From Moniliella sp. 'wahieum' (taxonomy: Eukaryota), in the NCBI GenBank assembly GCA_003971905.1, contig RSEE01000112.1, forward strand, positions 1-64,000: a stretch of 64,000 nt of DNA. Reading direction: 5' to 3'. Below, one piece after another: positions 1 to 14,658 of this stretch. Within the stretch, counting starts at the first letter, position 1, and each line of letters begins with the position of its first letter. Below the pieces are notes generated by a model. That model worked only from the letters and a program-made list of their open reading frames with translations, did no database searches and was not told where the DNA came from. The translations under genes and the position numbers were made by a program.

Positions 1-190
1 AACCCTAGGGGAGGGCCCGAGGGTAGTAGCGAGCTACCCGAAGGGGAGAGAGTTATGCCGAGGCGATAGCTCGCTATAAAATCGTCCGCTCTATGCAGCA
101 TATGCCCTCCGTTTCTCGATTGGACACCCGTTGACAAGTTACACCCCCCATCCCTAACCCTACCCAAACCCGACCCACAACACCCACCCT
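1..190 (+). repeat. Terminal module A: telomere-like start (AACCCT), inverted repeats and degenerate CCCTAA tract
   Basis: Window starts AACCCT. TAGCGAGCTA (27-36) and TAGCTCGCTA (67-76) form an inverted pair. CCCTAACCCTACCCAAACCC lies at about 152-171. Positions 61-189 align to 14527-14650. Confidence 0.75.
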
Positions 191-404
191 CCGATGGATG
201 TGATCATCTATCCAAGTGCATGCATGAAGCGCTTGACAAAGTGGGACAGTCGTTGTTAGGTTCGCCTCAAAGACCCACGACGGTCGTCGTCATTGTACGC
301 TTCAACATCTATGGCAGGTGTCGGATGCTTCTGGGGTGCATGTACTAGAGTTTGAATGATGGTATGCATTGCTATGTTCCTATACATGCTGGATGTTCAA
401 GACG

Positions 405-810
405 GGGAGCAGAGGCGTGGAGATGGGGAGCAGAGGCTTGATGGGGAGGCGCAGGGTTGGTGGCGAGCACAGGCTTGGGGGTGGAGAGCGTGGGGGGGGG
501 GCGCATGCTTGGAGGTGATGAGCACAGGTTGGTGGCGAGCACAAGCTTGGGGATGACCAGCACAGGCTTGGTGCCGAGCACAGGCTTGAAGATGGGGAGC
601 ACAGGCTTGGGGATGAGAAGCACAGGCTTGGTGGCGAGCACAATTTTGGCGATGACGAGCACAGGCTTGGAGACGATGAGCACAGACTTGGAGATGATGA
701 GCACCGGCTTGGTGGCGAGCACACGCTTGGGGAGAGAGCGCAGGCTTGGACATGATGAGCACAAGGTTGATGGCGAGCGCAAGCTTGGACGCAACAGAAA
801 GAGCACGACG
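405..810 (+). repeat. Subtelomeric minisatellite, 18-21 bp units with core GAGCACAGGCTTGG
   Basis: Many tandem degenerate copies of gagcac(a)ggcttgg followed by ggatga or tggc. Confidence 0.9.
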
Positions 811-1041
811 TGAACTGGCCCATGGGCTACTCGAGTTTGAGCATGGCCCCGACGAGCGTTGGGATGGAGGCAATGACGAGGGAGAACGGAAGGATGAGAG
901 GAAGAACGCTGGTACAAGAGCGGGTCAGATTGAGGCAGGGTGACATGGGATGGAATGGAGTGGGATGGGATGGGATGCGTACCGATGCGCTGAACGACGT
1001 TGCACATGGCCCAGACGGCGGTTGGGATGAGCATCTCAAGC

Positions 1042-1995
1042 AGGGTGACAGCAGGGGCAGCCAAGCGAGTGCACATCGGCCGGCAAAGGTTCGGAAGGGG
1101 ACGGCATGGCAAGCTGCACGGTCTGCTGGGACGGGGGCGAGGCAAGTCGGTACATGGCCGAAACGAGCTTCCACATGGCCAAGCCAAGCGCCCAGACAGC
1201 CAACGCAAGCGCGGCAGCGGTGGCAGCAGGCGAGGCATGCACAACGCCATGCACCATCCCATGCTTCCGCTTGCCTGACCCGACGGTGGCGATGGGCGAA
1301 TGAATGGAGATGGTGGCCGAGTCAATGGCGGAGATGGCCTGGGCGGGTGGGAGGTAGGAGCGCGGCGCTGGGACGGGTCGGGAGGCAGGGGACGTGGGAA
1401 AGAGCGCCGGGGTGGCGGGCAGTACCTGCAGAGACCCAGAAGCTGGACAGAAGACACAGAGGCGAGAGGGTCAGTAGAGGGCCGGTGTGTGGCAGATGAG
1501 GCGCGGGAGGCACCGAATGGGGGAAAGGAGGCTCAAAACGAGGGGTGTGAAACGAGGCAACAGACCTTGGGGGGCGGGCAAAGCCAGCCGGGTTGGGGGG
1601 GGGGCGTGGTAAGAAACCAACCGCATCGGTCGCCAGGCCAGGTCATACACCCGCCCCTGCCTGAACCAGTTAAAATCTGAATTGCACCGATGCATGGGGG
1701 GCTGTGCGCCGTCACATTGGCTCGGCCGCCACCGATTAGACCTACGCGCTACCACCACCTACTCGTCCAGCGCCACACGCCCGTTCTCCATCATTGTGCG
1801 ATGCCTTCCCCTGCCCCTGTGCGCGGCTGAAAGAGGACGCCTGGGGCACGATACGCCACCATTCATTCTCATACCCACCCAGAATTGGTGGTGCACCGAC
1901 GCTGTTTGTTCGAACCGTGCGCCGTCCCGACCCAACCTGAGCCTTTTGTAAGTGGTCTGACCTCAATTCTGGACCCATCCAAAAGCGTATCGTCT
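1042..1995 (+). repeat. Module B, copy 1 (about 0.95 kb direct repeat left of the recombinase-helicase gene)
   Basis: Begins AGGGTGACAGCAGG and aligns to 11528-12510. The core is near-identical (e.g. gggtggcgggcagtacctgcagagacccagaagctggacagaagacacagaggcgagagggtcagtag). Confidence 0.9.
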
Positions 1996-11527: not shown

Positions 11528-12510
11528 AGGGTGACAGCAGGTTCGCCAAGCGAGTGCACATGGGCCGGCAGAGCGTCCAAACGGGACGGCATGGCACGCT
11601 GCACGGTATGCGTTGGCATGGCCGAGCCTGAAACGAAGATGGCCAAGACGAGGACCGGATGGCCAAGCCAAGCGTCCAGACAACCAATCAAGCGCTGCAT
11701 GGTGGGGGCAGGCGAGGCTGTGACCATGGACGGCAGCAGGCATGCACCATCCCCTGCACCATCCATGCTTCCGCTTGCCGACCCGACGGTGGCGATGGCC
11801 GAATGAAGATGGTGGTGGCCGAATGAATGGCGGCGGTGGCCGAAGTCAATGGCGGGGATGGCCTGGGGGGGGTGGGAGGCAGGAGCGCGGCGCTGGGACG
11901 GGTCGGGGGGCAGGGGGACGTGGGAAAGAGCCCCGGGGGTGGCGGGCAGTACCTGCAGAGACCCAGAAGCTGGACAGAAGACACAGAGGCGAGAGGGTCA
12001 GTAGGGGGGTGTGTGGCAGATGAGGCGCGGGAGGAGGCACCGAATGGGGGAAAGGAGGCTCAGAACGAGGGGCTAAACGAGGCAACAGACCTTGGGGGGC
12101 GGCAAAGCCAGCCGGGTTGGGGGGGGGCGTGGTAAGAAACCAACCAGATCCGTCGCCTGGCCCGTGCATTCAGCCGCGGGCTGAAAATATTAACATTTGC
12201 AATTGCACCGATGCACGCGCAGCCTGCGCGGTCAGATTGGCTCGGCCGCCACCAAATCGACCAAGCCGCCACCACCACCAACGCACCACGCCACACGCCC
12301 GTTCTCCATCGCGGTGCATCGTCTTGCGCCCCACGCGTGCGCGTCTGAAAGAGACTACCTGGGGCACGCTACGCCACAATCGTGCTCTGAGTCCCAAATT
12401 GGTGGGGCACCGACGTTGTTTGTTGGGACCGTGCGCCGTCTGGACCGCACCTGAGGTAATTGGATGTGGTGTAACCTCAATCCTGGACCAATCCAAAAAG
12501 CGCATCATCA
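11528..12510 (+). repeat. Module B, copy 2
   Basis: Direct repeat of 1042-1995. Confidence 0.9.
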
Positions 12511-13501
12511 TCTTGAAAGCCTCGATTCTGGGCTACGCTACACCGTTGACAGATCTCTGATTCGTCCAGAATTGGTTGAACGCCGGCAGCATCAACATCG
12601 ACCATCCGCTGTTGGACCTAACTCTGATGTTCACATGTGGTGTGACCTCAATCCTGGTCCAATCCTGAAGCGCATTGGCTCCTGAAAGCCCTGCTCTGTG
12701 CACGCTGTGCATGTATGCAATGTATGTTGATGAGGATTGGTGCTGTGCCGGCACCGTCAACATAGACCTTCATCCGAATCAGCTAACATCAGATGTTGGG
12801 GGTGTTCTGACTCAATGCTGGACCAATCCTGGAGCGCCTTACCTCCCTGGAAGCCGTGCTTGTAGTGCACGATGGGGCGCGAGTCTCTGACATCCGACGA
12901 CAATGGTGGAGCGGCGGCGCCATTAACACCACCTGCCCGTGTTTGGACCTGCTGTGCACCATCGCTTCATGGTGGACAGATGCAGATGGTAGTCGATGTA
13001 GCCTGCCCTGGTGGAAGGCGAGGGAGTACGCTGCAGCGGGAGGCTTGGATGAGGCGTGCACCTGAGCGGGAGCGGTGGATCGATGCATGCTGGGATGAGA
13101 TGGGTGGCGTATGCCGGCGGGACCAAAATGGCGATATCTCAGCCGTCTCTCATCCGTTCTGGCTCACATTTGGCATGCTACCAACGGTAAGCAAGCACTG
13201 TTGGAGGCATGCATCAGATCCTCATCTGCCTCACGATCAGGGGCAACGCGCATAGAGGTGTGCTAGCGCCAACTGAAGCACGGATATGGACGATGCTCAC
13301 CACGCGACGGCATGCATGGTGACATGGGTGGTGGTGGGGGTGAAAGTGGTGGTGGAAGAAGTGGTGGTGGTGGTGGGACAGCTGCGGGAGTGGAGGTGGT
13401 GGGGGTGGCGGCGCTGGATTAATGGTTTGCGCACACCAACATCAGATGCGCGCCGGCAGCGCGCACAGCGGTGGACAGGGTCGGATGGCCACAGGCCAGA
13501 G

Positions 13502-14526
13502 GGGACTGGACACGGCGCAAGCAGCGTTGGAGGGCCGGCTATATTTGCTCAGGGCAAGCTCAGCGCACTGGTGTGCACTGTCCGATCTGCAGCATGCATC
13601 GAAACACAGTTGGCATTTGCACCCCCAGGCCCACCCGGCAGTACAGCAGGGCCGCACTTTGCAGAATCCCAACCGAGCTGGACCGAAGGCCTTGAACGTT
13701 GAAGGCCTGAGGCCTGGGCGCTGGGCGTTCAGCACTGGCAGCTCAGACTGAGCGCGGCCTGAGGGACGTGCGGGAGCGCGCTGCCAACGATGTACCTGAG
13801 CGCACACCCTGCGCCACTCCTCCTCCGCAGGAGGCCGCCCCCCCGCTCCGGCACGCGGCATCTTGGCAGCAGCTGCAAGCATTGCGCGTCACGCTTTTGC
13901 AGCTCCAGGCCAGCCCCGGCGTTCAACATCCAACGCTCCCGGTAACGCAGTGGATGCGGGCCTGTCGGGGTACCATCGTCACCAAACCGCGGCGTCCACA
14001 GCGCGTCCGCATATCACACACCCATTGTAACCCACCCTCACACGTACATGCAATGCCCCATCCCGGTCATGCCACCGGGTTGCACGCTGGCTCCACCCCG
14101 CACGGAACATTGCCCGGACCCTGTCACATCCGTTGCCGCATGCGGCGTTAGCGTGTGTCACATGTCACATGGCACATGCGGTGTTAGCGGGCGGCACATG
14201 CGGGCTACTTAGTAAGTAGCCCCCATGCCGATCCTTTCGAGCTGGCACCGCCAGGACACTGGCCCGCACCCAAACTGTCAGAGGTCACCAACCGTCAGGC
14301 ACCTCCCTTCGCCCTCCGCACGTTTCGACGGCCAGCAAACTCTGCATTCCAGCACACAGGCCCCGCGCCCAAACTGTCAGAGGTCACCATCTGTCAGGCG
14401 CCACATTTTCGCACTTACCACTGTGGTGCCTGACATTTGCAACCTCTGTAATTCTGAGACGAAAAAACGTCATTTTCATAGAGAAAATCGACGGAGTTAT
14501 GCAGTCCTTCACGTGAATATCTGACT
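13502..14526 (+). repeat. Module C, copy 2 (about 245 bp extra at 13693-13938)
   Basis: Direct repeat of 10739-11527. Confidence 0.9.
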
Positions 14527-14658
14527 AGGCGATAGCTCGCTAGGAAATCGTCCGCTGTTGCAGCATATGGCCTCCGTTTCTCGATTGGACCACCGTTCAA
14601 AAGTTACACCCACCATCCCTAACCCTACCCACCCCGACCACAACACCCAACCCCTAAC
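14527..14658 (+). repeat. Module A, copy 2, ending in degenerate telomeric repeats fused to 28S
   Basis: Direct repeat of 61-189. It contains CCCTAACCCTACCC and ends CAACCCCTAAC. Confidence 0.85.

What the first reader, a model, noticed from the sequence alone, without database searches (positions are those of the whole stretch)
50..14540. Module junctions break at the same AGG site beside a TTCACGTGAA palindrome: att-like crossover point
Seen: module C ends ...GAGTTATGCAGTCCTTCACGTGAATATCTGA(TGA)CT. It is joined to AGGGTGACAGC (module B) at 11527/11528 and to AGGCGATAGC (module A) at 14526/14527. The other B copy has a different left flank (CATCTCAAGC|AGGGTGACAGC, 1042). The terminal A copy reads GAGTTATGC-CG|AGGCGATAGC (50-70), so the palindromic segment is missing. 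The two acceptor sequences resemble each other (AGG..GA.AGC). Inference: repeated rearrangement at one short site fits site-specific recombination by the adjacent recombinase better than random ectopic recombination.
Basis: partly seen in the sequence, partly recalled or inferred. Interest (0 to 1): 0.75.

Follow-up and report, generated by a model that had tools for sequence, protein, structure and literature searches.

The report
One-ended telomere-replacing recombinase cassettes in fungus
The chromosome ends of this fungus are built from DNA cassettes that always attach by the same short end sequence and replace whatever lay beyond, and the telomere helicase gene they carry also encodes a DNA cutting-and-joining enzyme, which points to a new way for selfish DNA to spread between chromosome ends.

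Summary
The two junctions are real and belong to a genome-wide pattern. The window is a fungal chromosome end carrying a telomere-linked helicase (TLH)-type gene whose middle domain has the tyrosine-recombinase fold and five catalytic residues (earlier scan notes found this on other DNA; they did not report the DNA ends). Module C is the centromere-side end of the cassette. In 44 fetched contig ends, 99 such ends were found, all pointing inward (0 outward), making 74 distinct events in at least 8 end types; all stop at CTAG. The target is not one AGG site: of 50 unjoined target copies, 45 have G at -1, 18 read AG|G, overlap is mostly 1-2 bases. The TTCACGTGAA palindrome is private to one family. 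The distal half of the target is gone in 19 of 21 testable cases, so these are terminal replacements, not insertions. Best reading (0.6): one-ended transfer by the TLH recombinase-helicase, with non-autonomous cassettes down to about 0.2-0.6 kb. No reads could be laid and no activity was tested. A published Magnaporthe TLH boundary has the same polarity and a similar start.

The parts
1..62 (+). Telomere-adjacent start of module A (end of the CCCTAA tract, then the 40-bp satellite unit); holds two unjoined target sites used elsewhere (GCCGAG|GG and GCCGAG|GC at 62/63)
   Evidence: same sequence follows (CCCTAA)n at C82, C75, C139, C104, C43, C121, C142
63..197 (+). 140-bp satellite unit of module A with decayed CCCTAA repeats
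   Evidence: tandem arrays at many contig ends
201..2009 (+). Distal non-coding part of the cassette (x and module B); unjoined target CAAGCAG|GG at 1043/1044
2303..8362 (-). TLH-type gene, transcribed toward the telomere: C2H2 + OrsD/DUF3505 part (6902-8362), recombinase part (4808-6721), DEAD-type helicase (3903-5222), C-terminal part; split over several frames in this error-rich assembly
   Evidence: recombinase C-terminus and helicase motif I lie in one frame in the C75 copy
5147..5749 (-). Tyrosine-recombinase catalytic residues: Arg 5747-5749, Lys 5645-5647, Arg 5363-5365, His 5174-5176, Tyr 5147-5149
   Evidence: residues; fold
10727..11529 (+). Module C, first copy: centromere-side end of the TLH-bearing cassette
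11467..11490 (.). Subterminal dyad (8-bp arms around an 8-bp spacer, perfect in the C26 copy); candidate protein-binding site; second copy starts at 14469
   Evidence: function inferred
11506..11515 (.). TTCACGTGAA palindrome (second copy 14508-14517); specific to end family C1
11515..11529 (+). Terminal motif ending CTAG; junction 1 (C joined to B at 11529/11530, target AG|G)
11530..14528 (+). Non-autonomous 3-kb cassette (B'...C') without TLH gene, cut back at its distal end by junction 1; longer copies at C84, C104, C203, C207
14517..14528 (+). Terminal motif ending CTAG; junction 2 (C' joined to A at 14528/14529, target AG|G)
14529..14652 (+). Remnant of an older telomere-adjacent module A
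14655..24684 (+). rDNA on which the older end was built: 28S 3' fragment from model position 2827, 5S 15712-15829, 18S 20115-21937, 5.8S 22027-22179, partial 28S from 22305

Best explanation
Module C is the single cis-acting end of a chromosome-terminal mobile cassette that runs from this end out to the telomere. SHOWN: cassettes of at least 8 end types stop at one base (CTAG, preceded by a shared AT-rich ~8 nt), always on the centromere side; they are joined to unrelated sequences at a G with mostly 1-2 shared bases and no added bases; what lay distal to the target is lost; repeated rounds give nested stacks; the long cassettes carry a TLH gene whose middle domain has the tyrosine-recombinase fold and catalytic residues, fused to an SF2 helicase. 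INFERRED: the recombinase domain binds the ~12-bp terminal motif as a half-site, nicks beside CTA(G), stays attached as a 3'-phosphotyrosine and joins this strand to a G-starting 5' end of a nicked or broken target near another chromosome end; the helicase and host replication carry or copy the cassette out to its telomere, so no second end is needed. Short cassettes (telomere + satellite + ~120 bp of end) would move in trans.
For: Fixed end and polarity: 20 of 20 C-end matches (control 0); 40 of 42 D-type 12-mer matches lie within 16 kb of a contig end and point inward, 1 internal, 1 on a contig of unknown length (control 1; lengths); 99 inward, 0 outward in 44 ends, 74 distinct events; 87 of 405 centromere-side alignment breakpoints carry CTAG against about 1.3% expected. 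Blind check: C71, fetched for a reverse-transcriptase hit, has two inward ends, one cutting a Gypsy pol. Target: G at -1 45 of 50 (p 9e-19), A at -2 23 of 50, G at +1 57 of 74; shared bases with CTAG 0:5, 1:24, 2:17, 3:2, 4:2. Distal target half absent in 19 of 21 testable junctions on telomere-bearing ends; the 2 others lie in the satellite that every cassette carries; 10 had no unjoined copy. Enzyme: Arg 55/56, Lys 56/56, Arg 50/51, His 46/47, Tyr 46/46 among aligned relatives with a residue there; model pLDDT 82; top structural matches XerA Z 10.2 (rmsd 4.8, 167 aligned), XerH 10.1, integron integrase 9.8. TLH type 1 (window) sits behind a C end, type 3 (C87, C82, C196) behind a D end, both with all five residues; type 2 (C204, C37 inner) has lost Arg, Lys and His and shows no shared fixed end. 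Magnaporthe TLH ends diverge from unique DNA at the first or second C of CCTAACCAGTAATA (PMC1635262 section 13); ours reads (C)CTAGTCAGATATT in the same orientation.
Against: No activity, intermediate or read evidence. The link between the protein and the ends is proximity and co-variation of three TLH types, one of them the dead control. Overlap of 1-2 nt is shorter than in classical tyrosine-recombinase sites; topoisomerase IB scores nearly as well as recombinases (Z 9.2-9.4) and Foldseek's best E is only 0.02. End types E-H and C2 were not tied to any TLH copy. Every TLH copy read here is split over frames, and the C75 copy has lost its own end. The 44 ends were mostly chosen for matching A, C, D or TLH; the end patterns were derived from the same data; several hits are on small contigs where nearness to an end is trivial; five contigs (C135, C136, C39, C47, C37) repeat the same junctions and were counted once. 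The Magnaporthe likeness is one short comparison and CCTAA is also telomere-like; 34 metagenome loci gave no boundary test; Fusarium TLH regions are described as flanked by telomere repeats.
Confidence: 0.6

Rival explanations
1. Host repair at a fragile or protein-bound motif: the terminal motif is a frequent break or fork-stall point, and broken chromosome ends copy from it by microhomology-primed break-induced replication; the TLH recombinase is a bystander.
For: 1-2 nt overlaps and loss of the distal arm fit break-induced copying; whole junction stacks have clearly been copied between ends (C135, C136, C39, C47, C37).
Against: Template switching would not fix the donor breakpoint to one base across 74 events and 8 or more end types that share little beyond the last ~12 nt; it does not explain the conserved catalytic residues.
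Confidence: 0.14
2. Terminal retrotransposition in trans: RNAs with a fixed 3' end (CUAG) are reverse-transcribed onto broken ends by a Penelope-, CRE- or telomerase-type RT using a 1-2 nt clamp.
For: Same polarity as terminal retroelements (fixed proximal end, ragged distal end, head-to-tail stacks; recalled knowledge, and PMC4522978 passage); an earlier scan note reports a CRE-type array at another end of this genome (not checked).
Against: No RVT_1 in 119 ORFs of 230 aa or more from 30 end loci, only Copia pieces; the RT end checked (C71) is a Gypsy cut by a cassette end; no poly(A), added bases or telomeric 3' tail at junctions; no ribozyme match in 8 end loci; many cassettes reach the standard telomere-adjacent sequence.
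Confidence: 0.12
3. One reading: conservative att x att exchange at a defined AGG site beside the palindrome, via a circle.
For: Both window junctions are AG|G; the same B site was used by C and D ends and another site by D and E ends; a recombinase is present.
Against: AG|G in 18 of 50 targets; palindrome not conserved; no second (left) junction; distal target half lost in 19 of 21. The window's own C|B junction alone cannot exclude a tandem integration because the cassette carries an intact B site.
Confidence: 0.06
4. Non-autonomous Helitron-like elements: CTAG is a Helitron 3' end.
For: Terminal CTAG, no target duplication, ragged other end.
Against: Target is G, not A|T; no stable terminal hairpin in C ends (z -1.2 to +1.0 for C1; best -2.8 in one D variant); copies confined to chromosome ends in one orientation; no Rep/PIF1 in the scanned ORFs.
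Confidence: 0.05
5. Assembly artefact (chimeric long reads or misjoins in repeats).
For: The assembly is indel-rich (rRNA alignment) and has duplicated contig ends; no reads were laid.
Against: Chimeras would not stop at one base of a biological motif in 74 different contexts, in one orientation, on more than 30 contigs.
Confidence: 0.03

Closest known systems
Fungal telomere-linked RecQ helicase (TLH) regions (Magnaporthe oryzae TLH ends, PMC1635262; Fusarium oxysporum TLHcr, bioRxiv 2024.02.27.582403)
   Same: C2H2 + conserved middle domain + RecQ-type helicase, gene pointing to the telomere, satellites, sharp proximal boundary; in Magnaporthe the boundary falls at the first or second C of a CCTA.. 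motif with a palindrome close behind.
   Different: Those papers treat the regions as subtelomere domains; 'recombinase' and 'microhomolog' have 0 occurrences in PMC1635262; no target consensus, non-autonomous cassettes or transposition mechanism described in the parts read.
Crypton DNA transposons (PMC3212892)
   Same: Eukaryotic DNA elements with a tyrosine recombinase; no target duplication; non-autonomous derivatives.
   Different: Fungal Cryptons have two ends with 4-6 bp direct repeats and insert internally; here one end, 1-2 nt overlap, fused helicase, distal arm replaced.
Starships (PMC10104507)
   Same: Fungal tyrosine recombinase; element terminus shares a short stretch with a relaxed target.
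   Different: Starships are two-ended, excise cleanly and carry DUF3435; none of this here.
Terminal retroelements (Coprina/Athena PLEs, MoTeR, HeT-A/TART; largely recalled)
   Same: Polar head-to-tail stacks at chromosome ends with a fixed proximal end.
   Different: No RT in the cassettes; targets are not telomere repeats (1 of 74 joins a telomere-like tract).
Single-strand-exchange uses of tyrosine recombinases (CTX phage/XerC, integron integrase at secondary sites) and topoisomerase IB strand transfer (recalled, no call)
   Same: One strand exchange, very short one-sided homology, completion by replication.
   Different: Bacterial or viral, two-ended products; none replaces a linear chromosome end.
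Yeast Y' elements (as described in PMC1635262)
   Same: Helicase-encoding subtelomeric units in tandem arrays.
   Different: No recombinase or fixed enzyme-cut end described in the passages read; not compared by sequence here.

Membership tests
TLH gene family | Next to a telomere, transcribed toward it | tested here: met
TLH gene family | N-terminal C2H2 motifs / DUF3505 and RecQ-type SF2 helicase | tested here: met
   OrsD E 1.6e-7, DEAD E 6e-12; Helicase_C in C87 copy; C2H2 seen in translations
TLH gene family | Middle domain alignable to a named TLH protein | not tested
   no named TLH sequence fetched; position just upstream of the helicase fits the description
Tyrosine recombinase superfamily | Catalytic Arg-Lys-(x)xxArg-His-Tyr set | tested here: met
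   the first His of HxxR is not kept
Tyrosine recombinase superfamily | Integrase catalytic fold | tested here: met
   13 top rows all recombinases or topoisomerase IB, Z 8.1-10.2; best E 0.02 alone is weak; nearest named clusters integrase-like at 0.84-0.85 (lead)
Tyrosine recombinase superfamily | DNA cleavage through a 3'-phosphotyrosine | not testable with these tools
   needs biochemistry
Classical att x att system | Identical 6-8 bp overlap in both partners | tested here: not met
   shared bases 0-2 in 46 of 50
Crypton | Two termini with 4-6 bp direct repeats, both target halves kept | tested here: not met
Crypton | GCR1_C domain (CryptonF) | tested here: inconclusive
   no Pfam hit in the ORFs scanned; gene is frameshifted
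Starship | DUF3435 captain | tested here: inconclusive
   no Pfam hit for the 637-aa ORF at E 0.01
Starship | Two-ended insertion with direct repeat | tested here: not met
Helitron | 3' CTRR terminus | tested here: met
Helitron | Insertion between A and T; subterminal hairpin; RepHel | tested here: not met
   G target; no conserved hairpin; no RepHel in scanned ORFs
Telomeric retroelements (PLE, CRE/MoTeR) | Fixed proximal end, polar arrays | tested here: met
Telomeric retroelements (PLE, CRE/MoTeR) | Own RT; joins at telomere repeats | tested here: not met

The most novel reading that the evidence does not exclude
TLH genes of fungi are the transposases of a previously unrecognised class of DNA element: a one-ended, telomere-terminated cassette moved by a tyrosine-recombinase-RecQ fusion that joins a fixed YTAG end to a G near another chromosome end and discards the distal arm; the sharp TLH boundaries of Magnaporthe are the same footprint, and the process can both heal and truncate chromosomes.
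Probability: 0.5. Interest if true: 0.9.

Novelty: categorically new. Interest (0 to 1): 0.8.

Why it matters
TLH genes have been known at fungal chromosome ends for over two decades without an explanation of why they stay telomeric or why their regions have sharp inner borders. A defined cis end (about 12 bp), a target rule (G, often AG|G) and a catalytic domain make the question directly testable. If right, it adds a mode of eukaryotic DNA transposition (one end, completed by the telomere), explains terminal gene loss and rDNA truncation in subtelomeres, and recasts TLH induction in telomere crisis as element mobilisation.

Tried and rejected
A loose motif linking C ends to other sites (ACGTGWA-N4-9-GACTAG) gave 29 matches against 25 in the control: not discriminating; its extra hits on C9, C11, C20, C22, C23, C115, C156 were not element ends where inspected. 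The C204 site at 12110 looked like an end of TLH type 2 but the C37 copy diverges 300 bp earlier: dropped from all counts. An early C-at-minus-4 target preference vanished with more data (11 of 27, p 0.14; 17 of 50). The C87 cassette seemed to sit inside one Copia element; the two flanks are different Copia families. Word-indexed protein search found nothing. Three of four single-flank genome searches gave no clean unjoined site at the junction base for C132 and C84, a weak one for C203, a good one for C207. Metagenome TLH-like loci (34) had no multi-copy upstream boundaries. One sequencing run with 6% of the words is no evidence; no reads were laid. Literature: no paper with both 'telomere-linked helicase' and 'tyrosine recombinase'; searches listed none describing this; hits checked (PMC9940879, PMC8381367, PMC4522978, bioRxiv 2025.11.13.688278, passages only) were unrelated. 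The library lacks most subscription papers, the 2009 TLH-domain paper was not read, figures (Magnaporthe junction figure 3) are not held and bioRxiv supplements are closed, so absence from print is not proven.
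Full report
Setting. The window is the first 64 kb of contig C112 of a 69.5-Mb, 223-contig eukaryotic assembly with fungal-type rDNA and CCCTAA telomeres. The assembly is rich in single-base indels. From the end inward: satellite module A, spacer and module B, a TLH-type gene on the minus strand, module C, a 3-kb B'-C' unit, a remnant of A, then rDNA that starts inside 28S.

Observation. All quoted sequences and coordinates hold. The C-terminal 18-mer has 20 matches in the genome, control 0, all near contig ends and pointing toward the centromere. 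Every C copy stops at GACTAG and is followed by unrelated DNA: satellite, module B at two different points, a TLH gene, a dispersed repeat, unique DNA. The 83%-identical copy on C26 keeps the GACTAG end but not the palindrome.

More end families. One B target was also joined to a different sequence ending GTCTAG. This D end has 30 exact matches of a 14-mer and its last 12 bases have 42, control 1; 40 lie within 16 kb of a contig end and point inward, one is internal, one could not be placed. An all-against-all comparison of 44 contig ends, not seeded with a motif, put CTAG at 87 of 405 centromere-side breakpoints against about 1.3% expected and revealed further types E, F, G, H, C2. Read from the junction toward the telomere the ten variants begin CTAG, A or T, C, then an AT-rich run; upstream similarity is limited to three pairs. 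With these patterns there are 99 ends inward and 0 outward in 564 kb, on 36 of 44 ends, 74 distinct events after merging identical flanks. The ends were mostly fetched because they matched A, C, D or TLH, so presence is selected; orientation is not. C71, fetched for another reason, has two inward ends.

Target. For 50 of 74 events an unjoined copy of the target was found. G at -1: 45 of 50; A at -2: 23 of 50; AG|G: 18 of 50; G at +1: 57 of 74; T at -3 and C at -4 at background. The five without G at -1 all have G at +1 (read from the list). Shared bases with CTAG are 1-2 in 41 of 50. No bases are added, apart from possible homopolymer errors. Two sites were hit by two families. So the element end is exact and the target rule is loose.

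One-endedness. On the 16 ends that begin with telomere repeats there are 31 junctions; 21 were testable, and the distal half of the target is absent between junction and telomere in 19; the two exceptions lie in the 40-bp satellite that all cassettes carry (earlier pass). Targets include 18S, 28S, the rDNA spacer, TLH genes, Copia and Gypsy elements and other cassettes. The shortest cassettes run 190-620 bp from telomere to junction. The window's own C|B junction is ambiguous in isolation, since the long cassette carries an intact B site.

Enzyme. The ORF at 4808-6721 has no Pfam hit. A full HMMER search gave 70 relatives, several fused to helicase motifs. In 56 aligned sequences the residues matching the recombinase Arg, Lys, Arg, His and Tyr are almost invariant. 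The model (pLDDT 82) matches XerH weakly by Foldseek (E 0.02) and XerA, XerH, integron integrase and topoisomerase IB at Z 8-10 in the wide search. Of three TLH types in this genome (about 47% identical), types 1 and 3 keep all five residues and lie behind C and D ends; type 2 has lost three and shows no fixed end. Earlier scan notes reached the same domain call on other DNA; two look-ups for notes on ends or targets returned nothing, nor did the sequence look-up.

Mechanism. Shown: fixed end, polarity, G target with minimal overlap, loss of the distal arm, nesting, recombinase-helicase fusion. Inferred from general tyrosine-recombinase chemistry (my knowledge, no call): the motif lies on the 5' side of the junction on the telomere-to-centromere strand, where a bound protomer would hold a 3'-phosphotyrosine; transfer to a target 5' end and completion by helicase and replication would give the structures seen. 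Whether the donor is copied or cut and healed is open. Confidence 0.6; rivals are host microhomology repair (0.14), RT in trans (0.12), strict att exchange (0.06), Helitron (0.05), artefact (0.03).

Comparison with print. PMC1635262 (sections 13 and 31 and keyword passages read; figure 3 not held) reports that Magnaporthe TLH ends pass into unique DNA at the first or second C of CCTAACCAGTAATA; in the same orientation ours reads (C)CTAGTCAGATATT. This is one short likeness, and the motif is also telomere-like. The Fusarium preprint (parts 1-3 of 4 read) describes TLH regions singly or in arrays flanked by telomere repeats and gives the TLH domain no function. Cryptons (PMC3212892, passages) and Starships (PMC10104507, passages) are two-ended. 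Ten library searches listed no paper describing TLH as a recombinase-driven element; coverage is incomplete.

Verdict. It works like a one-ended terminal transposon; the gene is a TLH; it is not a Crypton, Starship, Helitron or telomeric retroelement by the features tested. Read support and activity remain untested.

Noticed in passing
window 14652/14655: Module A remnant with decayed CCCTAA repeats abuts 28S at model position 2827 with no CTAG motif: a different healing event on a broken rDNA unit.
   Followed up: partly
window 24600-24900; also C204 and C37: 28S copy runs into an intron-like insertion and then stops; in C204 and C37 it is followed by a decayed 5S and a catalytically dead TLH type 2.
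   Followed up: partly
window 25161-28270 and 30081-33155: Two diverged tandem copies (67-90% identical) of an unidentified minus-strand gene next to the rDNA; the two ORFs scanned had no Pfam hit.
   Followed up: no
L062 (C88) 1-60: Telomere repeats join module A directly at the same AGG site that is used by junction 2 of the window; single case, may be a chance telomerase seed.
   Followed up: no
L056, L058, L060 (C177, C200, C145) starts: 40-bp satellite arrays of 1.6-3.8 kb at contig starts; also noted by earlier scan findings.
   Followed up: no
L075 1-2860 and L065 (C87, C139): One Copia family inserted inside cassettes and inside the 40-bp satellite, 98.8% identical copies.
   Followed up: partly
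C135, C136, C39, C47 (L100, L051, L082, L080): Four contig ends start at the same base with identical junction stacks; assembly duplication or recent copying.
   Followed up: no
L071 8278-8362 (C75): TLH type 1 copy cut inside its OrsD part and joined through a 140-bp satellite unit to unique genes, without a CTAG end.
   Followed up: partly
window 21937-22305: Very short internal transcribed spacers (about 90 and 125 bp) and 5S inside the rDNA unit on the same strand.
   Followed up: no
L167 3330-3345: A CCTAGAC stretch about 1.5 kb upstream of a TLH-like match in a metagenome contig, beside an array of ~100-bp repeats; single copy, may be chance.
   Followed up: no
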